From Eledone cirrhosa (taxonomy: Eukaryota): a stretch of 64,000 nt of DNA. The notes under the pieces were generated by a model, which was not told the origin of the DNA, did not search any database, and was given only the letters and a program-made list of their open reading frames with translations. The stretch covers positions 19,096,001 through 19,160,000 of the forward strand of contig OZ024759.1 of assembly GCA_964016885.1 (NCBI GenBank). The letters are read 5' to 3'. Below, one piece after another: positions 1 to 50,984 of the stretch (position 1 is the first letter of the stretch; each line of letters opens with the position of its first letter). Both the position numbers and the translations under genes were made by a program.

Positions 1-1122
<1,122 letters not shown>

Positions 1123-2034: not shown

Positions 2035-2097
2035 CATATATATACATATACATATATATATATATACATATACATATATACATATATATATATATAC

Positions 2098-2137
<40 letters not shown>

Positions 2138-2198
2138 CATATATATATATATACATATATATATATACATATATATATATACATATATATATATACAT

Positions 2199-3081
2199 GT
2201 AGAATTATTTTGTATTATGAAATCCAAAAACATTTTATTAAATAACAGAATAGAGCGATCGTTATACTGTAACCATCGCTTAAAATCTACATTTTCATAT
2301 TATAAATACTACCAGATTGAACGCCTGTCTCTATCTCCGTTGATTGTCAAAATAGATATTAACATTCTTTATTAGTCTTAATTCTATCAACTCTTCTATT
2401 ATTTACCTTTCAATATAAACTGCTATAGATAAAATGAGATTTCTGATTTCTTGATTCAATTCCCTAAAGCATATACCCAGCTGGCTACTAGCATTGATGT
2501 TATTCAGTAGCAATCGAAATCTCCCCCTTCCCAATTGACACTTTATAATTAATACTACTACACCAAATGACCAGCCCTGTCCACTGTCCAATTGGTCAAG
2601 TAGAGATTAAAATTGGCACTCCCAAAAATTCTTATTTAGATAAAATGAACCATTTACTCATGGTATTCTCATTAGAAACCCATTATATACTTGTTTAGCA
2701 GTAATTTGATTTACCATCTGTCATATACAATCCCCTCTTTTTCTTCCTCTATTACTAATATAAATACTTCAATTTTTCTGATTTTATCCAATTTATCCAA
2801 AATCTCTGAAGAAGTGACAACTGATTATACATTTGCTATCGAATACTTGCTAACATTATATGATTACACAAGCAGCGATACATAGGTATTCCGTCTGTTA
2901 CAGAAACATATGTCAATACCTAATAAATTCCTTTTTAAAAAAAAGCACTTTCATTTTATATTCATCCTTTCTACATTTTCTCCGGAATATAATTTATACT
3001 CGTTGAGCAAACCTGCACGTACGCTGGTTCATCTCTAACGTAACGATATATTATCACTACATTATCGATAACCTGAAATTT
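2199..3081 (+). mobile_element. PLE-like 3' terminus, family B copy 1, with hammerhead-like motif
   Basis: Flanked by (TA)n; 2806-3081 matches 9067-9434; CTGAAGA 2806-2812 and GAAA-CATATG-TC 2903-2914. Confidence 0.6.
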
Positions 3082-3092
3082 TATATATATAT

Positions 3093-8723: not shown

Positions 8724-8724
<1 letters not shown>

Positions 8725-8822
8725 GTAATAATAATAAAATTGAAGACTAAAATCCAAAGAGGGCTCGATAAGGATAAATATATATCAAATATACAAGAAC
8801 CGTAGAGCAAATATTTATTTTA
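8724..8822 (-). mobile_element. TA-embedded tail fragment, family G (second copy 31901-31975)
   Basis: Two similar copies in (TA)n; the minus strand of this copy forms a GCTC-TA..TA-TC-GAGC hairpin. Confidence 0.55.
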
Positions 8823-8845
8823 ATAAATATATATATATATATATA

Positions 8846-9037
8846 ACGAAGGAAATGTGGTAAGGAACCAGGTGGACCATAACGCACCAAAGTACTCAAT
8901 ACTTAGGGTAGTAGAGTGGGTAATAGGAACGAGTAGGACCCCGACGGCTGAGCTCAAGCCGTTTCGACGGCTAATTCTGGACTGAATTAGCCGTCGAAAC
9001 GGCTTGAGCTCAGCCGTCGGGGTCCTACTCGTTCCTA
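8846..9037 (-). mobile_element. Family A copy 2
   Basis: Reverse complement of 3553-3742; fold-back centre GGCTAATTC-TGGACT-GAATTAGCC. Confidence 0.85.
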
Positions 9038-9066
9038 TATAGGTATATATATATATATATATATAT

Positions 9067-9434
9067 AGAAAAGGTGAATATAAAATGAAAGTGCATTTAT
9101 AAAGGAATTTATTAGGTATTGACATATGTTTCTGTAACAGACGGAATACCTATGTATCGCTGCTTGCGTAATCGTATAATGTTAGCAAGTATTCGATAAT
9201 CAGTTGTCACTTCTTCAGTTGTCACTTCTTATATGATACATAGGTATTCCGTCTATTACACAAACATATGTCAATACCTAATAAATTCCTTTATAAAAGC
9301 ACTTTCATTTTATATTCACCTTTTCTACATTTTCTCCGGAATATAATTTATACTTGTTGAGCAAACCTACACGTACGCTGTTCATCTCTAACGTGACGAT
9401 ATATTATCACTACATTATTGATAACTTGAAATTT
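9067..9434 (+). mobile_element. Family B copy 2 (fold-back; tail may extend to 9530)
   Basis: Minus arm 9067-~9218, plus arm ~9235-9327, then a tail matching 2974-3081. Confidence 0.75.
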
Positions 9435-9548
9435 ATAGTTAATTTCTTCATTCGTCGGACAATGGCCCGTTGATAAAGTTATTCCGGTCCCTCTTCTCCC
9501 TAGAAGTCTTATATATTTGTATGTGGGCTGATATATATATATATATAT

Positions 9549-9734
9549 AGGAACCAGTAAGACCCCAACGGCTGAGCTCAAGCCGTTTCGACGGCTAATT
9601 CAGAATTAGCCGTCGAAACGGCTTGAGCTCAGCCGTCGGGGTCTTACTGGTTCCTATTATCCACTCTACTACCCTAAGTATTGAGTACTTTGGTGCGTTA
9701 TGGTCCACCTGGTTCCTTACCACATTTCCTTCGT
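9549..9734 (+). mobile_element. Family A copy 3
   Basis: Near-perfect palindrome centred on GGCTAATTC-A-GAATTAGCC plus the same tail; (TA)n flanks. Confidence 0.85.
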
Positions 9735-9751
9735 TATATATATATATATAT

Positions 9752-10156
9752 ATATTGTTATACTTGGGGAGGGTCATATTTGTGTAATAATATTGCCAGA
9801 ATTAATAACAGAACACACTCACTGTTTGGTTGGTTTTCGCTTCTGTAACTTTTATATCGGTTAATTTAATTTATTCGGTCCTCAATGTTGCCATTGACTG
9901 ACCAACGCTCAAAAATACAGACACAATATAGACACAAACACATATATATAGTCTATCAAAGTTCTTTCGTTGCACATCGTCAGTGGTGCTATTATGTTTC
10001 CTCCCGTTGCATTGTATGCTTACGCCAAACTCTGAGTGTGTTCTGTTATTAATTCTGGCAATATTATTACACAAATATGACCCTCCACAAGTATAACAAT
10101 ATTTGTTTCGACACGATTTCATATAAAAAAAACCTCGCAAAGCTAATTCATCGCCG

Positions 10157-10157
<1 letters not shown>
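9752..10157 (+). mobile_element. Fold-back element, family F copy 1, with minus-strand hammerhead-like core
   Basis: Inverted arms 9752-9821 / 10033-10102; tail 10103-10157; minus strand ~9953-9991 reads CTGACGA-TGTGCAAC-GAAA-GAAC-TT. Confidence 0.7.
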
Positions 10158-10191
<34 letters not shown>

Positions 10192-10319
10192 AAAGTTCTA
10201 TTTAAAATTGTTGGGATACAACAAGTAAATATTTTTATAACTAATATAAAGCACTCGACAAGTATTTGGAGTAGATATACGATATTAATAAATTTAAACT
10301 ATATTTATAAAACCATATT

Positions 10320-10384
10320 TATTTCATTATACATATTTCAGGGATACCAAATTAAATTATGGTATGCCTTCATCAGACAAAATA
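10320..10384 (-). ncRNA. Type I hammerhead ribozyme (family C)
   Basis: Reverse complement of 10478-10542. Confidence 0.75.
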
Positions 10385-10477
10385 CAATATATAACAGTTT
10401 TACAAATAAGCTTTGACGTACCCTATTAAAATGCAACCATTATTTTTGGAAGCCATCCGTAAAACTGTTATATATTG

Positions 10478-10542
10478 TATTTTGTCTGATGAAGGCATAC
10501 CATAATTTAATTTGGTATCCCTGAAATATGTATAATGAAATA
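10478..10542 (+). ncRNA. Type I hammerhead ribozyme (family C)
   Basis: Stem I TATTTTGT/ATGAAATA; CTGATGA 10486-10492; stem II AGGCATACC/GGTATCCCT; GAAA 10523-10526; minimal stem III TATGTA; AUA triplet, predicted cut after 10534. Confidence 0.8.
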
Positions 10543-10581
10543 AATATGGTTTTATAAATATAGTTTCCATTTATTAATATC

Positions 10582-10615
<34 letters not shown>

Positions 10616-10618
<3 letters not shown>

Positions 10619-10805
10619 AACCAGTAAGACCCCGACAGCTGAGCTCAAGCCGTTTCGACGGCTAATTCTGTCCAGAATTAGCCGTCGAAACGGCTTGAGC
10701 TCAGCTGTCGGGGTCTTACTGGTTCCTATTACCCACTCTACTACCTCAAGTATTGAGTACTTTGGTGCGTTATGGTCCACCTGGTTCCTTACCACATTTC
10801 CTTCG

Positions 10806-10806
<1 letters not shown>
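10616..10806 (+). mobile_element. Family A copy 4
   Basis: Both arms carry the private GACAGCTG/CAGCTGTC variant. Confidence 0.85.
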
Positions 10807-10837
<31 letters not shown>

Positions 10838-10840
<3 letters not shown>

Positions 10841-11040
10841 AGTAAGTAAGACCCCGACGGCTGAGCTCAAGCCGTTTCGACGGCTAATTCTGTACTGAAT
10901 TCAGTACAGAATTAGCCGTCGAAACGGCTTGAGCTCAGCCGTCGGGGTCTTACTTACTCCTATTACCCACTCTACTACCCTAAGTATTGAGTACTTTGGT
11001 GCGTTATGGTCCACCTGGTTCCTTACCACTTTTCATTCGC
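10838..11040 (+). mobile_element. Family A copy 5
   Basis: Palindrome centred on GAATTC; both arms share GAGTAAGTAAG/CTTACTTACTC. Confidence 0.85.
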
Positions 11041-11081
<41 letters not shown>

Positions 11082-11134
11082 GTATATATGTGTATGTGCG
11101 TGTGCGTGTATATATATATATATATATGTATAGA

Positions 11135-11340
11135 AAGTGCGTGGCTTAGTGGTTAGAGAATTGGATTCGTAATCGTGAGGTTGGGAGTTCAATTCCTGGA
11201 CCGCGCGATGCGTTATGTCCTTGGGCAAGACACTTTATTTCACGATGCTCCTTCTACCTGGAGTTGCGACCGATAGATAGTATTAGCAATTGGAAAGACC
11301 AACGGAAACATTGTTTCCTCGGTCCGACTTGACGAAAGAT
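11135..11340 (+). mobile_element. tRNA-derived SINE with a distinct tail, TA-embedded (second copy 15943-16158)
   Basis: A box TGGCTTAGTGG, B box GAGTTCAATTCC, core TGTCCTTGGGCAAGACACTT. Confidence 0.8.
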
Positions 11341-11436
11341 ATATAGATATATGTGTATAGATATATATGTATAGATGTATATATACATAGATATGTATAC
11401 ATATACAAAGCTGCATACATATATAGATATTTACAT

Positions 11437-11498
<62 letters not shown>

Positions 11499-11501
<3 letters not shown>

Positions 11502-11932
11502 AAAGATTTATTTAAAATTGTTGGGTTACAACGAGTAAATATTTTATAACTGATATAAAAGCACTCAACAGGTTTTGGAGTAGGTTTACGATATTAAACA
11601 AATGGAAACTATATTTATAAAACCATATTTATTTCGTTATATATATTTCTGGGATATCATATTAAAAATATGGTATGCCTTCCTCAGACAAAATACAATA
11701 TGTTTTATAAATAATTTTGACATACCTTAGAATAATGCAACTTCCATTTAAAAAATCAACTTTTTAAATGGAAGTTGCATTATTCTAAGGTATGCCAAAA
11801 TTATTTATAAAACAGCTTATATATTGTATTTTGTCTGAGGAAGGCATACCATATTTTTAATATGATATCCCAGAAATATATATAACGAAATAAATATGGT
11901 TTTATAAATATAGTTTCCATTTGTTTAATATC

Positions 11933-11933
<1 letters not shown>
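11499..11933 (-). mobile_element. Family C copy 2 (long fold-back, hammerheads on both strands)
   Basis: Arms ~11589-11754 / 11761-11933; plus-strand hammerhead 11827-11892: TATTTTGT-CTGAGGA..GAAA-TATATA-TA|ACGAAATA. Confidence 0.8.
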
Positions 11934-11978
<45 letters not shown>

Positions 11979-12124
11979 GTATATACATGCTACTCCCATG
12001 CTGCTTTTATTCCATATTGCTTATGCAACTAAATCTTTTGTGTCGCAGCTTATATTCTTCTTTTCATTCATTTTTGTGCTTTTTTCCATTACCTTTATAT
12101 ATATATAGATATAGATATAAATAT

Positions 12125-12163
<39 letters not shown>

Positions 12164-12227
12164 TATGCGTATGAGGAGAAAGAGAAAGAGGGGAGGGGGG
12201 AGAGAGTTTCTTCTTACATAACCACTG

Positions 12228-12314
12228 GACGTTCTATTTTTAAAACAAAAAGATCTTCAGAAATGTGTAGACCAAACTATAGATATATGCTTGGCATCGA
12301 CGAGATAGTCTGGA
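12228..12314 (+). repeat. TA-adjacent repeat, family E (inverted partner 12691-12772)
   Basis: Two diverged copies in opposite orientation, each ending CTGGA at (TA)n. Confidence 0.65.
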
Positions 12315-12349
12315 TATATATATAGATATATATATATATATATATCTAT

Positions 12350-12382
<33 letters not shown>

Positions 12383-12383
<1 letters not shown>

Positions 12384-12577
12384 CGTAGGTCCCGGGTTGA
12401 GTCGGGGATAACCACAGTAAGTAAGGTACTCAATACATGGCAGAGTAAAAAATTTTTATTTTATAGAAGGAGCTTCTACAGGACTAGTACTGTTTCATTC
12501 AGATGAAATCTTCAGGAAGCTTCCTGAAGATTTCATCTGAATGAAACAGTACTAGTCCTGTAGAAGCTCCTTCTATA

Positions 12578-12580
<3 letters not shown>
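12383..12580 (-). mobile_element. Fold-back element, family D copy 1, with a perfect 122-bp palindrome
   Basis: Tail 12383-12458; palindrome 12459-12580 centred on AAG|CTT. Confidence 0.85.
12518..12568 (+). ncRNA. Type I hammerhead ribozyme (family D), mirrored on the minus strand at 12471-12521
   Basis: AGCTTC-CTGAAGA-TTTCATCTGAAT-GAAA-CAG-TACTAGTC-CTG-TA|GAAGCT; GUA triplet. Confidence 0.8.
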
Positions 12581-12664
<84 letters not shown>

Positions 12665-12832
12665 TATATATATATATATTTATATATATATCCAGATTAT
12701 TTCGACAATGCCAAGCATATATCTATAGTTTGGTCTACACATTTCTGAAGATCTTTTTGTTTTAAAAATAGATATATATATAAATAGTTGCAGAATACAA
12801 ACATATTCATATGTATGCGAAGTACATATTCA

Positions 12833-12907
<75 letters not shown>

Positions 12908-13012
12908 GTACATATATACTGTATATATACACACACACACATGTATATATATATATATACATATATATATATACACATATATATGGGGACACACACACAT
13001 ATATATATATAC

Positions 13013-13055
<43 letters not shown>

Positions 13056-13070
13056 TATATATATACATAT

Positions 13071-13101
<31 letters not shown>

Positions 13102-13502
13102 CACACACACACATATATACATATACACATACACACACACATATATACACATATACACATATACACACACACATATATACACATGTATATATATATACAC
13201 ACACACATACAACAGTATTTCATAATATATATAATATATATATATATATAACCTACATTACATTCTTCTTATAGATTTTGCTACTGTTGATGTGCTTTTG
13301 TTTTACGTTTTCCATATTCTTTCTTCTCCAACATCCTCTACTTCTCTAACAACAACTAATACTAATACTACTACAAAGTTCAAATCCCGTTGAAGTCAAC
13401 TTTACCTTTCAGCCTTCACTAATCTATAAAGTAAAGTATCAGTGGTGAATATGTGTATTTTTAAGTTTCAGGTCATAAACAGTTAACACAACCACAAGGA
13501 TA

Positions 13503-13760
13503 TGGTCCGAACGTGTGAGTGAGTGTGTGTGTGTTGGCTGAACACCCACTGTCATCGCCTCCATCTTTCTCGCCCTCCTCATCTCTCTGTATGGTGAGCA
13601 AACGGGGTTCCACGTACTGGCTTCCCTCACAGCCCCGGCAGACAGAATGGAGAAGGCGTTACCCGCGGGGTAAAGGGAGTTGCACTCGAAGAGCCATTCC
13701 ATCTCGCGAGCCTGACGCCTGCGGCTGTCCAGCTCAGCGCCTATGGCGGTTAGTAGGGAA
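13503..13760 (-). mobile_element. CRE-like LINE 3' fragment
   Basis: Minus ORF EWLF..GNAFSILSAGAVR matches the C-terminus and 3' UTR of 61801-63400. Confidence 0.8.
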
Positions 13761-13909
13761 ACCAGTTAAGTACTAGATCAATATAAGAGTCTTTCCCCTT
13801 CCCCAAATTACTGGTCTTCTGTCATCGTTATAAAGAATCATTATTCTCCATCGGTTGCTTTTTATTCTTTTCCTAATTGTCATCATAATCATCGTTATTA
13901 TCGTTATTA

Positions 13910-14118
13910 TTATGGCAGTATTGTCAGTATCGGTAGAGGGTCGGACGCCATGCTTTGCAGCATAGAGTTACGGCCCTTTATGATCTGAGTTCAAATCCCG
14001 CCGAGGTTAACTTTGCCTTTCATCCTTACGGTGTCGATAAAATAAAGGACCAGTAATATACTGGGGTCGATTTAATCGACTTACCCCTCCCCAAAAATTG
14101 CTTGCCTTGTGCCTAACA
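13910..14118 (+). mobile_element. tRNA-derived SINE family 1 (representative; more than 30 full or partial copies in the window)
   Basis: A-box-like TGTCAGTATCGG, B box GAGTTCAAATCCC, core AACTTTGCCTTTCATCC..GTCGATAAAATAAAG. Confidence 0.85.
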
Positions 14119-14335
14119 CAGAGGAGACTGAGGTTTGCTGAACATGCTCACCGACATTCAGAGTTGACACTGCACTCAGTGTCCTGTGAGAGCCCCTACA
14201 TAGACACACTAGAAGAGGGAGACCGAGGTTGACATATATTGATGCCCTAAGGACAGACACTGGTCTCTGAGAGATGCAGGACATGGCGGTGATAATGAAG
14301 GACAGAAACCGCTGAAGAGAACTCGTCCATGGATC
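14119..14335 (+). mobile_element. RTE-group LINE 3' remnant
   Basis: RRLRFAEHAHRH..RRGRPRLTYIDALRTDTG..MKDR, with stops. Confidence 0.65.
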
Positions 14336-14354
14336 TCAGGAATTTTACCCACCC

Positions 14355-14390
<36 letters not shown>

Positions 14391-14399
<9 letters not shown>

Positions 14400-14572
14400 T
14401 GAGATTCTACAGGACTAGAACTGTTTCATTCTTTAGAAATCATCAGATGATTTCTAAAGAATGAAATAGTTCTAGTCCTGTAGAATCTCATCTATATTAA
14501 AACTTTTATACTCTGCAATGTATTGAGTACCTTACTTACTGTGGTTACCTCCGATTCAACCCGGAATAACGT
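14391..14572 (+). mobile_element. Family D copy 2
   Basis: Arms 14391-14444 / 14446-14499 centred in the CTGATGA core; tail 14500-14572 homologous to 12383-12458. Confidence 0.8.
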
Positions 14573-14592
14573 ATATATATATATATAAATAT

Positions 14593-14874
14593 ACGATATT
14601 AACAAATGGAAACCATATTTATAAAACCATATTTATTTCATTATACATATTTCAAGGACACCAAGTTAAATTATGTTGTGCTTTCATCAGATAAAATATA
14701 GATCAAATATAATATAGATCAGTTTTATAAATAAATATTGACATACCCTTAAAGAATGCAACCATTACTGTTGGAAGCTCCCGTATTTTTACTCGAAATA
14801 TTTGTTGAGTGCTTTATATCAGTTATAAAAATATTTGCTTGTTGTATCCCAACAATTTAAATAGAACTTTTACA
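14593..14874. mobile_element. Family C copy 3 (minus-strand hammerhead arm joined to plus-strand tail)
   Basis: Homology to 10189-10582; (TA)n flanks. Confidence 0.75.
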
Positions 14875-14875
14875 A

Positions 14876-15814: not shown

Positions 15815-15944
<130 letters not shown>

Positions 15945-16248
15945 TGAAGGCGTGTGGCTGAGTGGTTAGAGAATTCGCAATCGTAAGGTTGTGAGTTCGA
16001 TTCCTGGACCAGGCGATGCGTTATGTCCTTGGGCAAGACACTTTATTTCACGTTGCTTGTTCTACCTGGAGTTGCGACCGATAGATAGTATTAGTAATTG
16101 GAAAGACCAACGGAAACACTGTTCCCTCGGTCCGATTTGACGAAAGTCGATCATCTCCTATATATATATATATGTATATGTAATGTGTATGTGCTTGTAT
16201 ATATATAATGCATGTGTGCATATATGTATATACATCTTTATACGTGTG

Positions 16249-17195: not shown

Positions 17196-17976
17196 ATTTC
17201 GGATTTTAAAGTATATACAGTACATGCCTTGCAATACATTACATTGTGTTACGTTGTGTTTCATCGCCCCGTGTATAAACGTCGTTTATATTCCTTAGTA
17301 TCCACTACATTTAGCAGACCCTCGCACATATAAGCTCGAAGTTATTGTTAATGCGTCCTCTAGAATCCACAACTAGGAATCCCAATTGTCAGATTTGTCA
17401 ATGTAGAATTTTACCTTATGCAGAGAAGAGCTCTGCATGTGTACATATTTTCCTGGCTACATTTTTTTGTGTCTTATAACATTAAATAATAATGGTTTCT
17501 ACTTTTGGCACAAGGCCAGCAAATACCCAGTGAATTACTGGTACTTTATTTTATCGACCTCATAAGGATGAAAGGCAAAGTTAACCGCGGCGGGATTTGA
17601 ACTCAGACCGTAAAGGGACGTAACTCAGAATAACTGTTTCTACTTTTGGCACAAGGCCAGCAATTATCCAGTACATTACTGGTACTTTATTTACTGGGTA
17701 ATTGCTGGCCTTGTGCCAAAAGTAGAAACAGTTATTCTGAGTTACGTAACTCAGAATAACATTAAATAATAATGTTTCTTTTTATATAACAATCATTTAT
17801 ATAACATAATCACAACAACTGTTTATGTAAATAAACATTTAATAATGTTTTTCTTTTTCTTTTTTTTTATATAAATCTTTTTTTTCCAGAGAAACACTAA
17901 CGCGATAAACGTTGTCGAACGATTCTACATGCTGCAGAGACACACAAAATTATTTTCAATATATATATATATATAT

Positions 17977-32003: not shown

Positions 32004-32196
32004 CCTGACCCTGCAAATATCATTCTGACGCACTCTAATCATGTATAAATAAGACACGCATGCATGCTACACGTGAGATTGTTTCATGCACTGACTACTC
32101 TAAGCTTTCCTCTTGCTTTATCTTCATAGACTGCCAACGCTTCATGTTTATCTTTATTTTCATTCTTGCTTTTATTTTTATTTTTATTTTTATCCT

Positions 32197-32775
32197 GTAA
32201 CCTTTACATGTAAATTGCCATGCTATATCATTTGATGAGTGTCACCCCACTGTTGATCAATATGCGCATATGTTTTATGTGTCTCTTGGGTTGAAAAGGA
32301 GGTCAAGTATGTTATAGATCAGTAAATAGTTGCTCCGAAGAATCCAAACCTCGGTTTGGAGGAAACAATTGTAAGCAAATAAATGACTTAAACTGAACTT
32401 TGATTATTGTAATCTCTATATGTATATATATATATATATTAGTAATGCTGTATTCGATTCTTTGAAGTCACGTGTTATAATTTCATTCAAGAACACCACT
32501 AGCTCTCTCTCACTCGCTCTCTCACAACCACTTTCTCTCTATATATATCTCTTTCTATCTATGTTTCTCTCTCTGTCTATTCATGAAGGAAGAACCCTGG
32601 AAGAACCCCGTATCTCGGGAACCCGTGCTCCGATTTACGTGAAACTTGTTTTATTCCATTTGTTTTCCCATTTCAGGGGCAACTACTTTTCCAAATAGTT
32701 TGCCATTATACGGCGTTTTGGCTGTTTTGAATTACAGACAAGACACAATCACACGGTTTTAGTAGTGTATGTATG

Positions 32776-32820
<45 letters not shown>

Positions 32821-33039
32821 TACATGAATCAAAGTTCTGTTTAAATCATTTATTTGCTTACAATTGTTTCTTCCAAACCGAGGTTTGGAGTCTTTGGAGC
32901 AATTATTCAGTGATTTTTTATGTACTTGACCTCCTTTCCAACACAAGAGACATATAGAAACCTATGTATATATTGACCCACAGTGGGTTGACATCCATTA
33001 TAATAATATAGCATGGCAATTTACATACAAAGATTACAG
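32197..33039. repeat. Diverged inverted pair, family J (32197-32418 / 32815-33039)
   Basis: Shared TCCAAACCTCGGTTTGGA and AAACAATTGTAAGCAAATAAATGA; inner ends abut (TA)n. Confidence 0.8.
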
Positions 33040-33143
33040 TCATATTAAACAAAAAAAATTACTGTCTTTCACTATTTAGGGTTTAAAATATATATAACTA
33101 TAAAAGGTTTTAGTGTATACATAACCATAAATAGTATCCTTAA

Positions 33144-33181
<38 letters not shown>

Positions 33182-33280
33182 GAAAAGATGTCAACACGAA
33201 TGGACCTGTTATTTTTATCTAAAGACATTTTTTTCCAATTCTAATCCGCCTGTCTCTTCAATCTATCTTATTTCTCATTC

Positions 33281-33323
<43 letters not shown>

Positions 33324-34960: not shown

Positions 34961-35753
34961 CGGGGCAGTCCGAAAGTCTTGTCACTCCTTGTCACATATT
35001 GTTTTAGTATCGGTAGAGAGTCGGACGCCATGCTTTGACGCATAGTTACGGCCCTTGCCATTCTGAGTTCAAATCCTGCCGAGGTTAACTTTGCCTTTCA
35101 TCCTTACGGGGTCGATAAAATAAAGTACCAGTAATGTACTGGGTATTGTTGGCCTTGTGCCTAAAGTAGAAACAATTATTTTGATCTGAGTTCAGCACTT
35201 TATGGTCTGAGTTCAAATCCCACCGAGGTTAACTTTGCCTTTCATCCTTACAGGGGTCGATAAAATAAAGTACCAGTAATACACTGGGATAATTGCTGGC
35301 CTTGTGCCAAAAGTAGAAACAATTAATTATAATATATAATAATAATTGTTTCTACTTTTGGCACAAGGCCACCAATTACCCAGTACATTTCTGGTACTTT
35401 ATATTATCGACCCTGTAATGATGAAAGGCAAAGTTAATCTCGGCGGGATTTGAACTCAGTTCGTAAAGGAACGTAACTCTATGCTGGAAAGCATGGCATC
35501 CGACTCTCTACCGATACTGAATAATAATATAATTTTCTATTTCAGAGCTCCTACAGTTTGGAAGAGAGGTTGCTTGCAAGTGTATGGACACGTGATCATA
35601 TGCATTCTGGCAAGAGCATGGCGGATGTGCGACATGACTTCACTGCAAGATCCAGCAAACCAGCTCCTCCGAAGAGGACGATACTGCGATGGGAACATAA
35701 ACTGTTTCTCATTACTTTTTGGTAGGGGGTGACAAGACTTTCGGACCACCCTG
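34961..35753. mobile_element. Non-autonomous Tc1-like element with three nested family-1 SINEs
   Basis: TIRs CGGGGCAGTCCGAAAGTCTTGTCACTCCT / GGGGGTGACAAGACTTTCGGACCACCCTG; TA on both sides; SINEs at ~35007-35520. Confidence 0.8.
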
Positions 35754-39181: not shown

Positions 39182-40259
39182 TTTGAGGGCCTTCTCTAAA
39201 AAATTTGAGTAGAGAAATTTTTAATAATCAAACAAGATTATTATTTTATATATATTTAGGGCGGTGAATTGGCAGTATCGGTAGAGGGTTGGATTATGCT
39301 TTCCAGCATAGTTATGTCCCTTTACGATCTGAGTTCAATTCCCGCCGAGGCTAACTTTGCCTTTCATCCTTACAGGGTCGATAAAATAAAGTACCAGTAA
39401 TGTACTGGGATAATTGCTGGCCTTGTGCCAAAAAGTAGAAACAATTATTTTGTATATATTTGAAAAAGCAAAACATACCTGAGGAATGCAGAGTCGAGTT
39501 CAATCTGTAACAGATCCTGCCTTGAGCTGATCGTCGAAGATGTTAATAAATATGCTGTAAATAATATGTTAATAAATTATATTTTGATGCATTAGTGATT
39601 CCTCGTTAACTATAATAATTGTTTCTACTTTTGGCACAAGGCCAGCAAATTACCCAGTACATTACTGGTACCTTATTCTATCGACCCTGTAAGGATGAAA
39701 GGCAAAGTTGACCTCGGCGGGATTTGAACTCAGAATGGAAAGGGCCGTAACTCTATGCGTCAAAGCATGGCGTGCAACTCTCTACCGATACTGCCAATCC
39801 ACCAATAATATACTCTGCTCTGTACGAGCATCGAGTGCTCAAACGGCCTACCGCCTACGGACACATTTAATTGCAGCCATACAACAACTATATATATTTA
39901 ATTTTTAATGTCTTTGTATTAAAAATGTTTAAAAAACATTTTAAAAATGAGGTCTTCGGAGGTGTGTGGCCCTAAGCTATAGCTTATACAGTTTATATCC
40001 AGCACTGCAAACTGCTCTCTGTAGCTGCTTCACTCTGATAACAACATATTTGTAAAATGAATGGATATCACTTTGTCTATTTGCCTAACACACTCATTAA
40101 CCTTTGATTGATGTCTCATAAATGAAAAAGGTCATGCAACTGAAATCAATTCATTACACTAAAGCGTGTCTAAGATAACCGATTTTCTCTTCACAGAATG
40201 GCTTCAAATTAACCTATACAATTCGATAAATTAACATTGTCACTCAGTGTGAATTTATA

Positions 40260-42140
40260 ATAATGGCTTCTTAAACAGGCACAAGGCCAGCAATTTGGGG
40301 GGAGGGGAAAGTCGATTAAACCGACCCCAGTGCGTGACTGGTACTTTATTTTACCGAACCCGTAAGAATGAAAGGCAAAGTTAACCTGGGCGGAATTTGA
40401 ACTCAGATCATAAAGGGCCGTAACTCTATGTTGCAAAGCATGGTATCTGACCGTCCGCCGATACTGCCAATCCATTTTATAATAATTGTTTCTACTTTAG
40501 GCACAAGGCCAGCAATTACCCAGTGCATTACTGGTACTTTATTTTATCGACCCCGTAAGGATGAAAGGCAAAGTCAACCTCGGCGGGATTTGAACTCAGA
40601 TCGTAAAGGGACGTAACTATGCTGGAAAGCATGGCGTCCAACCCTCTACCAATACTGCCAATCCACCGCCTAATTTAGGCACAAGGCCAACAATTTTGAG
40701 AAGAGTGAAAGTCGATGAAAGTCAACACCAGTACATTACCGGTGCTTTATTTTATCGAACCCGTAACGATGAAAAGCAAATCTAACCTCGGCGGGATGCC
40801 ATAAAGCCTATTGTCCGATTCTACTGCCAATCTACCGTCCATAGCGAGAATTTATAATAATGGTTTCTGATTTAGACCCAAGGCCAACAGATTTGAGGAG
40901 AGGCAAAGTCGATGAAATCAACCCCAGTGTATTACTGGTGCTTTATTATTATAGTGATACCCGTAACGATAAAAAAGAAGGTGGATCTCGGGGGAATTTG
41001 AATACACAATCATCATCATCATCATCATCATTTCATTTTACGTCCGCTTTTTCCCTGCTTGCAAGGGTGGGACAGGAACTGATACTGGCTTGATTTCTAC
41101 AGCTGGATGCCCTTCCTAACACCAACCTCATTTACAGTGAGTGCTGGGTGCTTTTTTGCCGTGGCACCTCCACGACCACTTTACAGTGGAATGATATGGA
41201 CCCCAGTCCCTATCATCTCATTTCTACAGCTGAGTAAACTGGAGCAATGTAAAATAAAGTGTCTTGCTCAAGGAAACAACACATCACCCGGTCTGAGAAT
41301 TGAACTCACAACCTTTCGATTGCAAGGCCAATACTCTAACCACTAAGCCATGCGCCTCCATGTAAGCATTTAATTCCATCAGTCTAACGAATCTATCTAT
41401 TCCCCACTTTCTAACAATTTATAAGAATTTTAATAATAATTGTTTCTATTTTTGGCACAAGGCCAGCAATTACGACAGTGCATTACTGGTACTTTATTTT
41501 ATCGACCCCATAAGGATGAAAGGCAAAGTTAACCTCGGCGGGATTTGAACTCAGACCGTAAAGGGCCGTAACTCTATGCTGCAAAGCATGGTGACCGACC
41601 CTCTACCGATACTATCAATCCACCGCCCTTATTTTAATAATTGTTTCTACTTTTGGCACAAGGCCAGCAATTATTTCAGTGTATTACTGGTACTTTATTT
41701 TATCGACCCCGTAAGGATGAAAGGCAAAAATGGTTTCTTATATAGACAGGCACAAGGCTAGCAATTTTGGGAGAGGGGGAAGTCGATTAAATTAACCCGT
41801 GTGTGACTGGTACTTTATTTTATTGACCCCGTAAGGATGAAAGGCAAAGCTAACCACGGCGGGATTTGAACTCAGATCATGAAGGGCCATAACTCTATGC
41901 TGCAAAGCATGGTGTCCGACGCTCTATCGATACTGCTCTCCTCTATCGAATAATAATTGTTTCTACCTTTGGCACAAGGCCAGCAATTACCCAGTGTATT
42001 ACTGGTACTTTATTTTATCGACCCCGTAAGGATGAAAGGCAAAGTTAACCTCGGCGGGATTTGAACTCAGGCTATAAAGGGCCTTAACTCTTTGCTGCAA
42101 AGCATGGCGTCCGACCCTCTACCGATATTGCCAATCCACC
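40260..42140 (-). mobile_element. Same-orientation array of about 8 family-1 SINEs plus one family-2 SINE (41010-41359)
   Basis: Repeated TAATAATTGTTTCTACTTTTGGCACAAGGCCAGC..GGCGGGATTTGAACTCAG units. Confidence 0.9.
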
Positions 42141-46328: not shown

Positions 46329-46560
46329 TTACTAGCCTTCCATTTGTGTATATATATATATATATACAAATGAAAGGTAGAGTTAATAACTCATACTGCT
46401 ACCCTGTAATTAACAAGCTCAACATTTGTTTGAAATATTCAACCATATATTTCAAACAAATGTGGTTCTTCAACCCTCGTAATATTAGACACACGATTTA
46501 CTGTGTTTATTACTGCATATATTATTTTATATATATATATATTGACTGACAGGAAGGTAT

Positions 46561-46603
46561 ACGATGCTGACTATAGCTAATAAGCTTGAAACTAGTTCAT
46601 TGT
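46561..46603 (+). ncRNA. Variant or decayed type I hammerhead
   Basis: ACGATG-CTGACTA-T-AGCT-AATA-AGCT-T-GAAA-CTAG-TT|CATTGT; G8 replaced by T; lies in a TA-flanked segment ~46543-46720. Confidence 0.6.
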
Positions 46604-46840
46604 TCCTTTGTCAGTATTGAACCAAAGGGCAACGATGGTTGCCGAACACTGTAAGGCGTAATTCAGGCTGTTTCTTTACAAACAAGCCGAACATTATAAT
46701 AAATGTTTGGTAAACCCATACGTACATATATATATATATGTGTGCATGTATGTATATATATATATACATACTACTATACGTCTGTCTACATATGTACGTA
46801 TACATACTTATATATATTTATATATATATATATATATATA

Positions 46841-47043: not shown

Positions 47044-47046
<3 letters not shown>

Positions 47047-47270
47047 GGAGGTGAGTTTTATTGTAGTACAATAAAGCAATGCAGATATCGGATAAGAAGC
47101 ACTCTACAGTTTGTTGATTTAAAACTGCACTATCCACAAGTGTTTTTTAGCCTTCATATCATGTTCTCCTGTTTTATCTGATGAAAACACAAATATTATT
47201 GCATGATGATGTTTGTTTTTGAAATGTGCATAATAAAATATATGGAACTCCTTTAACCATCTTTTGATCT

Positions 47271-47272
<2 letters not shown>
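47044..47272 (+). mobile_element. Family K element (minus-strand tail-like piece plus plus-strand hammerhead arm)
   Basis: TA flanks; contains the hammerhead at 47170-47240. Confidence 0.7.
47170..47240 (+). ncRNA. Type I hammerhead ribozyme (family K)
   Basis: TGTTTTAT-CTGATGA-(long stem II)-GAAA-TGTGCA-TA|ATAAAATA. Confidence 0.78.
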
Positions 47273-47329
<57 letters not shown>

Positions 47330-49995: not shown

Positions 49996-50984
49996 ATATG
50001 GCCCTACGCCCCTCCCACTGTAAAGTGGTCGTGAGGTGTCACAACAAAAAAGCACACCCAGACCACACTGTAAAGTGGCCGTGTAGACGTCACGGTAAAA
50101 AAGGACCCAGTACTCACTGTAAATGAGGTTGGTGTTAGGAAGGGCATCTAGCTGTAGAAATCAAGCCAGAATCAGTTCCCATATGAGTAAAACATGGTCA
50201 CCCGACCTGGAATTGCCCACAACAGGACAACCCATTTAACCCATGCTAGCATGGAAGAATGGACGTAAAATGGTGATGATGATGATATATTAAAATATAT
50301 AGAATAAAATATATGATAGAATATTTAGATATATATGAATATACTAAATTATTTAATAAAATATTCAAATATTATATATGAATATACTAAAATATATAAT
50401 ATAATATTTACATATTATATATAGATATACAAAGTATATATAATAAAATGGATATTAATATATTAGAATATTTACAGTGTATATATGGATACAGTAAAGT
50501 ATATAAAATATTTATTTTTCCGAATTTGAAAGTGGTTTTATTGTTTAGAATTTAGACTATTTACATTGAGAAGAATTTACAATTTTCCCCAAAATTTTAT
50601 ACAACAAATTTCAATTAATTTATGTAAGGTTTTCGTTAAAAAATATACAAGTAAAATGAATGTAGCAGTCTAATATATTATTTGTATGGAGATTATTTGT
50701 ATTGAATTTACAATATTTGTAATCAATATATGGAATGTTATCATTTAAACTAGGTAAAGTGGAGAAAGAAAATTTTATTATACTTTTATTAATAACTCTG
50801 TAGTATCTATAGTGAAGGCACATAATTTTGTTGGTTTGAGAGTTGGATTCACCATCACAAGGTTGTGAATTTGATACCCAAACTAGACTGTGTGTTGTAT
50901 CCTCGAGCAAGACATTTTGTTTTAGATTACATCAGTTCACTCAGAAAACACCTTGCCCAGGCTTCTGCCTTAGAAGAGAATTTT

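What the first reader, a model, noticed from the sequence alone, without database searches (positions are those of the whole stretch)
8724..14874. Ecosystem of (TA)n-targeted fold-back hammerhead elements from at least six unrelated families
Seen: about 25 short non-coding inserts in (TA)n tracts, roughly half of them in this 6-kb stretch and the rest at 2.2-3.7, 18, 31, 43.8, 46.5-47.3 and 55.1 kb. Families A, B, C, D, F and K show little or no alignable sequence by eye. Most copies share the layout (TA)n, inverted arm starting at an internal TA, fold-back, hammerhead (whole or half), unpaired 3' tail, (TA)n. Established: Penelope-like elements carry minimal type-I hammerheads in their pLTRs, often have inverted 5' arms and a 3' tail, and some (Neptune group) favour microsatellites. 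Inference: these are short non-autonomous or heavily truncated PLE/retrozyme-like units that use TA arrays as landing pads and may help generate them. No RT or GIY-YIG ORF for them is visible in this window.
Basis: partly seen in the sequence, partly recalled or inferred. Interest (0 to 1): 0.9.

Follow-up and report, generated by a model that had tools for sequence, protein, structure and literature searches.

The report
Penelope retrotransposon run-off palindromes in (TA)n
These short fold-back inserts in (TA)n tracts are the ribozyme-bearing ends of Penelope-like retrotransposons, at least one with intact copies elsewhere in the genome, and they likely form when two reverse transcripts run off the capped start of the element's own RNA and are joined head to head.

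Summary
Observation confirmed: 12 inserts of six families at 8.7-14.9 kb, 139 in 464 kb around the window. They are not a new non-coding class. Long copies tie A, B, C, D, E and K to ORFs with Hydra-clade Penelope-like (PLE) motifs, and F to a Neptune-type endonuclease. The insert at 10617 is 100% identical to the end of an intact 3,531-bp tandem element with a 717-aa telomerase-like RT ORF. (TA)n targeting, hammerheads, inverted 5' arms and tails are published PLE traits. Added here: the arms' 5' ends pile against a wall 27-31 nt after a TATA box (A, C). Family C carries a likely cap-derived G there (81 of 100, partly confounded; weak in A). 140 of 165 pairs have one tailed and one tailless arm, and 134 of 140 junctions are distinct. 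Best reading: dead-end twin-primed copies of the capped mRNA 5' end, not self-amplifying retrozymes. Family A's 'half' hammerhead is a whole U3-A8 variant in the full element, with the likely start site inside loop II. No RNA data, no cleavage assay.

The parts
8725..8826 (-). Family D (Hydra-type PLE) tail only, no hammerhead in this copy
   Evidence: long D copies run into an RT-EN ORF
8846..9043 (-). Family A fold-back: tailed arm 8846-8987, tailless arm 8984-9038; 3' half of the hammerhead
   Evidence: 95-96% to tandem master
9068..9433 (+). Family E fold-back; GAAA, stem III and stem I present, CUGANGA core degenerate
   Evidence: long copy at 2196-3090 starts with Hydra-type EN C-terminus
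9550..9734 (+). Family A fold-back, tailless arm on the left
   Evidence: 96-97%
9756..10157 (+). Family F (Neptune-type PLE) fold-back: long tailless inverted arm, short tailed arm
   Evidence: long copy joins a CX4CxxC, GIY-YIG, CCHH endonuclease frame
10189..10582 (+). Family B fold-back, tail on the inverted arm; complete minimal hammerheads at 10478-10542 (+) and 10320-10384 (-)
   Evidence: long copies L121, L122 carry a Hydra-type EN
10617..10806 (+). Family A fold-back, both arms 100% identical to the end of the intact tandem element on contig C1
   Evidence: 137/137 and 54/54
10839..11040 (+). Family A fold-back of another subfamily, arms reaching TATA+27
11499..11933 (+). Family B fold-back (second subfamily); hammerhead core visible, not passed by the strict scan
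12384..12585 (-). Family C fold-back, tail on the left
14393..14571 (+). Family C fold-back folded at the hammerhead core
   Evidence: C's outer end runs into a Hydra-type ORF in L107/L123
14588..14875 (+). Family B: long tailless inverted arm with a whole hammerhead (14634-14698, -) joined to a tail-only arm; neither arm contains the other
2196..3090 (+). Long 5'-truncated family E copy: last EN codons, 3' UTR and end
47044..47275 (+). Family K: tail-only inverted arm plus tailless arm with a whole hammerhead (47170-47240)
   Evidence: long copy L125 begins with Hydra-type EN codons (read by eye)

Best explanation
The inserts are the pseudo-LTR ends of Hydra-clade (A, B, C, D, E, K) and Neptune-type (F) Penelope-like retrotransposons inserted in (TA)n, and they likely arise as twin-primed reverse transcripts that run off the capped 5' end of the element's own mRNA. 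Shown: linkage to RT-endonuclease ORFs; two fixed 3' termini per family; one of each terminus per palindrome; a 5' wall just downstream of a TATA box in A and C; distinct junctions. Inferred steps: (1) a tandem unit is transcribed from a TATA/initiator promoter in the upstream pLTR. (2) The protein binds the two internal priming sites, which also lie 60-280 nt from the 5' end of that mRNA, ahead of the ORF. (3) The GIY-YIG domain cuts both strands of a (TA)n tract. (4) One 3' end primes at the inner site and the other at the outer site of the same RNA, the second displacing the first cDNA. (5) Both cDNAs stop at or before the cap, sometimes copying it as an extra G, and are joined head to head by microhomology or filler. 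The product resembles an inserted 'strong-stop' DNA and is a dead end, because it lacks the TATA box. In family A the inferred start lies inside hammerhead loop II, so only read-through RNA at the 3' end of a unit would hold a whole ribozyme.
For: Intact master: four consecutive 784-codon open frames at 3,531-bp spacing, 1 mismatch between neighbouring units. Its model has pLDDT 93.5, and the best Foldseek hit is telomerase RT. Family A 5' ends: 158 of 236 arms at TATA+27..52, 2 at +1..26, 8 in the 200 nt upstream and 50 long; in the unselected stretch only 3 of 62 lie upstream of +27. Family C: 53 of 82 at +30..55, 3 at +4..29. K has a similar wall at an initiator-like site (12 of 55 arms). 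Family C base before the +1 A, excluding the genomic C: G 81, T 10, A 9 of the first 100 of 1,426 hits (counted by hand). Long copies have C there in 16 of 18. With (TA)4 directly upstream, G in 18 of 22. Pairs: 140 of 165 head-to-head pairs are inner+outer, 1 inner+inner, 1 outer+outer, 23 with an irregular end. The tailless arm reaches further 5' in 47 pairs, the tailed arm in 20, tie in 73 (p=0.0013; without B 22 vs 7). Arms of one insert share subfamily alleles: A 1.7% vs 7.2% mismatch, K 1.9% vs 5.5%. In vitro, a PLE protein cuts and extends both strands and starts at two internal sites that bound the tail (PMC11167929).
Against: No transcript data: the start sites are inferred from sequence. 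The cap-G signal is confounded in C: of 22 G-bearing loci read, I judge 13 clearly untemplated and 9 explicable by microhomology with the inverted arm; one search shares that confound. It is weak in A: at TATA+31, direct (TA)n joins show T 85, C 11, G 4, A 0 of the first 100 of 280; at +27 only 2 of 11 arms held show G, the rest share microhomology. A genome-wide count at +27 is lacking. B has a broad 5' distribution, and B and K lack a clear TATA box at -30. The non-nested excess is only 6 vs 4 in the unselected stretch, and later asymmetric deletion at a palindrome centre could mimic it. Arm-to-arm identity is uninformative in B and C. Both termini here sit at TA/AT matches to the target, whereas the Anolis element primed without homology (PMC11167929). 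No compensatory changes in the A hammerhead.
Confidence: 0.62

Rival explanations
1. Same elements and same run-off at the mRNA 5' end, but one cDNA snaps back on itself (self-priming) to make the second arm; the inner terminus is set by an endonuclease nick, and central deletions later make the arms unequal.
For: Explains shared alleles and G on both arms; 73 of 140 pairs are symmetric within 8 nt; many joins overlap by 1-14 nt. Self-priming was proposed for PLE palindromes (PMC3846280, Discussion).
Against: In 47 pairs neither arm contains the other, more than twice the nested class (20), some by over 100 nt. Filler of up to about 30 nt and 1-nt spacers occur at joins. Published in vitro extension is on both strands from two sites (PMC11167929).
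Confidence: 0.22
2. Ordinary random 5' truncation with inversion of 3'-primed cDNAs; the wall reflects RT stalling at hammerhead structure or favoured microhomology rather than an RNA 5' end, or an antisense template as proposed for rotifer PLEs.
For: Short palindromes lie at the A and K walls; in A the wall is inside loop II; B's ends are spread.
Against: In C the wall lies just 5' of the core, outside any helix, at TATA+31 with excess G. In A the 6-8 nt stem-II microhomology just upstream is hardly used (1 arm at -12..0). Single arms joined straight to (TA)n also start at the wall.
Confidence: 0.11
3. Self-amplifying non-autonomous units (retrozymes, or MITEs with terminal inverted repeats) that are copied as palindromes.
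For: Small, non-coding, hammerhead-bearing, very numerous; animal retrozymes are reported to derive from PLE pLTRs (bioRxiv 10.64898/2026.07.22.740005).
Against: 134 of 140 junctions distinct, largest class 4; ends asymmetric; not tandem hammerhead repeats; 100% identity to an autonomous element's end; the short copies lack the TATA box.
Confidence: 0.04

Closest known systems
Hydra clade of C-terminal EN+ Penelope-like elements (Craig et al. 2021, PMC8557442)
   Same: Single RT-EN ORF with DKT, CxCX5C linker, CxxC and CxH, no CCHH; hammerheads; insertion into (TA)n; tandem units, inverted 5' copy, tail at one end.
   Different: RWR in place of RWK; 3.5-kb unit (paper: generally <3 kb); tails of about 65-85 nt (paper: 30-40); very abundant here (about 300 PLE-end inserts per Mb in the 464 kb sampled); U3-A8 or U4A hammerhead cores in A and D; most copies are 150-450-bp palindromes of the pLTR alone.
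Neptune-type PLEs
   Same: Family F: CX4CxxC linker, GIY-YIG with CCHH, (TA)n targets.
   Different: Only the C-terminal part of the ORF was read; the hammerhead stem I is unclear.
Adineta vaga Penelope inverted and solo pLTRs (PMC3846280)
   Same: pLTR with TATA and initiator, head-to-head inverted pLTRs with a palindrome at the join, optional tail.
   Different: There low copy and read as self-priming on an antisense template or as recombination leftovers; here thousands of copies whose joins sit at the sense-strand start site.
Poseidon element of Anolis in vitro (PMC11167929)
   Same: Two internal RT start sites bounding the tail, near the ORF start; both strands cut and extended; hammerhead not needed for insertion.
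   Different: No homology to the target there, 2-3 nt TA match here; the two parts I read do not treat inverted arms or run-off products.
L1 twin priming and the 5' untemplated G
   Same: Inverted 5' arm from a second primer (abstract start of PMC2837659 in a search listing); extra G attributed to the cap (passage in PMC9341517).
   Different: L1's two arms cover adjoining, not overlapping, parts of the RNA (recalled); here both arms copy the same stretch.
Non-LTR retrozymes (bioRxiv 10.64898/2026.07.22.740005)
   Same: Short, non-coding, type-I hammerhead, PLE-related.
   Different: Retrozymes are head-to-tail tandem units; these are single head-to-head palindromes with distinct joins.

Membership tests
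Penelope-like elements (EN+) | Telomerase-like RT in a single ORF | tested here: met
   717-aa ORF with YRDD; model pLDDT 93.5; Foldseek rank 1 is TERT (3du5, E 3e-8), other RTs close behind. Pfam and PDB sequence searches found nothing for it.
Penelope-like elements (EN+) | C-terminal GIY-YIG endonuclease | tested here: met
   YIG motif region read in A. Pfam GIY-YIG passes the cut-off for the top homologue P0001 and is below it for a paralogue in L101; no Pfam hit on A itself; EN fold not searched separately.
Penelope-like elements (EN+) | Tandem units giving pLTRs, inverted 5' copy, one-sided tail | tested here: met
Penelope-like elements (EN+) | Type-I hammerhead in the pLTR | tested here: met
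   B, K pass the descriptor; C core and stems read directly; A is a U3-A8 variant whose minimum-energy fold is the hammerhead, with N7 free to vary; degenerate in E, unclear in F.
Penelope-like elements (EN+) | Hammerhead self-cleavage | not testable with these tools
   needs an in vitro assay
Hydra clade (A, B, C, D, E, K) | CxCX5C linker, CxxC and CxH in EN, no CCHH | tested here: met
   A, C-linked ORF, D, B (read by eye); only CxxC/CxH seen for K and CxH for E
Hydra clade (A, B, C, D, E, K) | RWK and DKT motifs | tested here: met
   DKT exact and RWR (conservative change) in A and the C-linked ORF; N-termini of B, D, E, K not read
Hydra clade (A, B, C, D, E, K) | Insertion into (TA)n | tested here: met
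Hydra clade (A, B, C, D, E, K) | Placement in the Hydra clade on an RT tree | not tested
   no named reference proteins were held; 116 unnamed relatives at 38-52% identity were aligned
Neptune clade (F) | CX2-5CxxC linker plus CCHH in GIY-YIG | tested here: met
   tree placement not tested
Non-LTR retrozymes | Head-to-tail tandem non-coding units, each with a hammerhead | tested here: not met
   single palindromes with distinct joins
MITEs | Symmetric terminal inverted repeats and a fixed internal sequence | tested here: not met
   one inner and one outer terminus in 140 of 165 pairs; variable centres

The most novel reading that the evidence does not exclude
The genome holds a record of hundreds of thousands of PLE integration events. 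It shows that PLEs copy a capped, sense mRNA by priming both cut target strands at two internal sites of one RNA, and that the commonest product is a dead-end palindrome running to the cap. This would explain PLE inverted pLTRs and tails with one mechanism and displace the antisense self-priming model. In family A the promoter inside hammerhead loop II would act as a switch, so that only read-through RNA can self-cleave.
Probability: 0.5. Interest if true: 0.75.

Novelty: new member of a known kind. Interest (0 to 1): 0.55.

Why it matters
How PLEs make their inverted and tandem structures and hit microsatellites is named as open in PMC8557442, and PMC3846280 and PMC11167929 leave the later steps unvalidated. 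This genome offers thousands of junctions with a sharp geometry and an intact, near-identical tandem element with a compact ORF, which makes the question directly testable. In practice these inserts are likely to be misfiled as MITEs, SINEs or microRNA hairpins (Rfam's sub-threshold hits were mostly miRNA models), and each is a potential hairpin-RNA source.

Tried and rejected
Rfam: no hammerhead among the 150 of 239 matches printed. Pfam on the A ORF and PDB sequence search: blank. Single-sequence fold failed (pLDDT 32) and was redone with an alignment. Folding z-scores for the hammerheads are not significant, and covariation in A is nil because the copies are too alike. Sequencing runs: no RNA holder listed, which is no evidence either way; no reads were laid, so empty sites and expression are unexamined. 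I first read A as lacking a catalytic core (no CUGANGA in the unit) and dropped that on finding the U3-A8 core. A first search for D's ORF looked on the wrong side of an inverted arm (corrected). Families J, R, T and the pair at 12234-12313/12692-12771 were not traced to ORFs by a dedicated search. Earlier-findings look-ups returned nothing. Literature: 8 searches showed no paper tying PLE palindrome centres to the start site or a cap G. The library lacks most subscription papers, and I opened no supplements; those of PMC8557442 list Hydra families and hammerheads and may bear on the U3-A8 point.
Full report
Setting. The window is G000:C20:19096001-19160000 of a 3.0-Gb assembly. The host looks like an octopod mollusc; that is recalled from its SINEs and was not tested.

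Observation. Twelve inserts of six families lie between (TA)n tracts in 8725-14875, with more elsewhere in the window. Five complete minimal type-I hammerheads pass a descriptor scan, against 0.03 in shuffles. In 464 kb taken by place, ten families give 139 inserts (A 44, F 22, C 17, B 15, D 15, K 9, J 7, R 4, T 4, E 2). Of 54 fold-backs, 35 have (TA)n on both sides, against 7.7% of random placements. All 30 loci from a genome-wide search with A's 3' part end in (TA)n (two are one locus, one is the window copy).

What they belong to. Three of those 30 A loci extend upstream; one reaches a GIY-YIG-type frame. That frame finds 57,443 first-look candidates, of which 150 were scored, all 96-100% identical. 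On contig C1 four open frames follow at 3,531-bp spacing, with 1 mismatch between neighbouring units. The 717-aa protein has RWR, DKT, YRDD, CxCX5C, CxxC and CxH and no CCHH, which is the Hydra description in PMC8557442 (section 11 read; also passages). Its model's best structural match is telomerase RT. The insert at 10617 is identical to this element's end. B (L121, L122), C (L107/L123, 49% to A), D (most of L246-L264), E (window 2196) and K (L125, by eye) link to similar ORFs, and F to a Neptune-type endonuclease. Both termini of the short A copies lie between the promoter and the ATG of the next unit, at TA dinucleotides.

Hammerheads. B and K carry whole minimal hammerheads, C carries the core at its fold, D a U4A core (read by eye), and E a degenerate one. 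The A master has a U3-A8 core: 25 of 29 distinct regex hits, position 7 free (16 U, 6 C, 3 G), and the hammerhead as its minimum-energy fold. U3-A8 was reported in Schistosoma PLEs (PMC4209133, parts 1-2 of 4 read). Loop II holds a TATA-like box and initiator-like sites, and the short copies keep only the 3' half. There is no covariation support and no activity data.

Geometry. Arms were mapped on natural long copies in 1.07 Mb of held sequence; loci from searches are not a random sample. Each family has two 3' termini. Of 165 head-to-head pairs, 140 have one of each. 5' ends wall up at TATA+27 in A (158 of 236 within +27..52, 2 within +1..26) and at +30..32 in C (53 of 82 within +30..55, 3 within +4..29). 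K has a wall without a clear TATA box; B is spread. Before C's +1 base, G dominates among non-genomic letters (81 of 100; 18 of 22). Only 13 of 22 inspected G loci are free of a microhomology explanation, and A gives little support. Junctions are distinct in 134 of 140 pairs, and arms share subfamily alleles in A and K. The tailless arm reaches further 5' in 47 pairs against 20 the other way, though only 6 vs 4 in the unselected stretch.

Mechanism. PLE promoters lie in the pLTR (PMC2377424, passages). A PLE protein cuts and extends both strands and starts at two internal sites near the ORF start (PMC11167929, parts 1-2 of 4 read). I infer that priming at the 5'-proximal copy of these sites gives two short cDNAs that run to the cap and are joined head to head. 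One RNA used twice, inner site first, accounts for the strict inner+outer pairing, the shared alleles and the shorter tailed arm. Snap-back of one cDNA remains the main rival. The antisense self-priming proposed in PMC3846280 (passages) does not predict a wall at the sense start.

Known versus new. PLE identity, (TA)n targeting, hammerheads, inverted arms and tails are published. A recent octopus repeat annotation lists active Penelope families with no mention of hammerheads or Hydra (PMC13282606, part 1 of 3 and term search). Eight searches did not show the start-site or cap link in print. The retrozyme preprint (part 1 of 5 read) concerns tandem units. PMC3681739, PMC8969392 and PMC9341517 were seen as passages only. 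Whether insertion lengthens (TA)n is undecided: adjacent tracts have a median of 23 vs 15 nt. A figure of hundreds of thousands of inserts genome-wide is an extrapolation from 464 kb.

Verdict. New members of a known kind, with confidence about 0.97 in PLE identity and about 0.6 in the run-off twin-priming mechanism. Interest 0.55.

Noticed in passing
window 12234-12313 and 12692-12771: An 80-bp inverted pair (95%) enclosing TA tracts and a family C insert; no other copy in about 1.15 Mb held.
   Followed up: partly
window 32151-32415, 32819-33057, 33183-33284, 46546-46737: Three more families (R, T, J) with hammerhead motifs in longer copies; R shows a U4C-type core, and one R copy adjoins a Hydra-type RT fragment in L101.
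   Followed up: partly
window 17486-17736, 35062-35459, 39322-42077 and elsewhere: A very abundant short AT-rich repeat that also forms head-to-head fold-backs, not tied to (TA)n; possibly a SINE or DNA element part.
   Followed up: no
L099:548-1342, L032, L123: Other PLE-like ORFs (Neptune-like and Poseidon-like, by recalled motifs) lie next to or nested in the Hydra copies; (TA)n tracts collect stacks of different families.
   Followed up: partly
L042 about 2050-2150 (-) and window family E: An E-like lineage keeps stem I, GAAA and the palindromic stem III but has lost the CUGANGA core, which hints at a non-catalytic role for that half.
   Followed up: no
window 50734-50817 (-): 28-codon remnant similar to the Hydra ORF.
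   Followed up: no
window 11133-11337, 15942-16158: tRNA-like SINE heads next to (TA)n tracts, not part of the PLE families.
   Followed up: no
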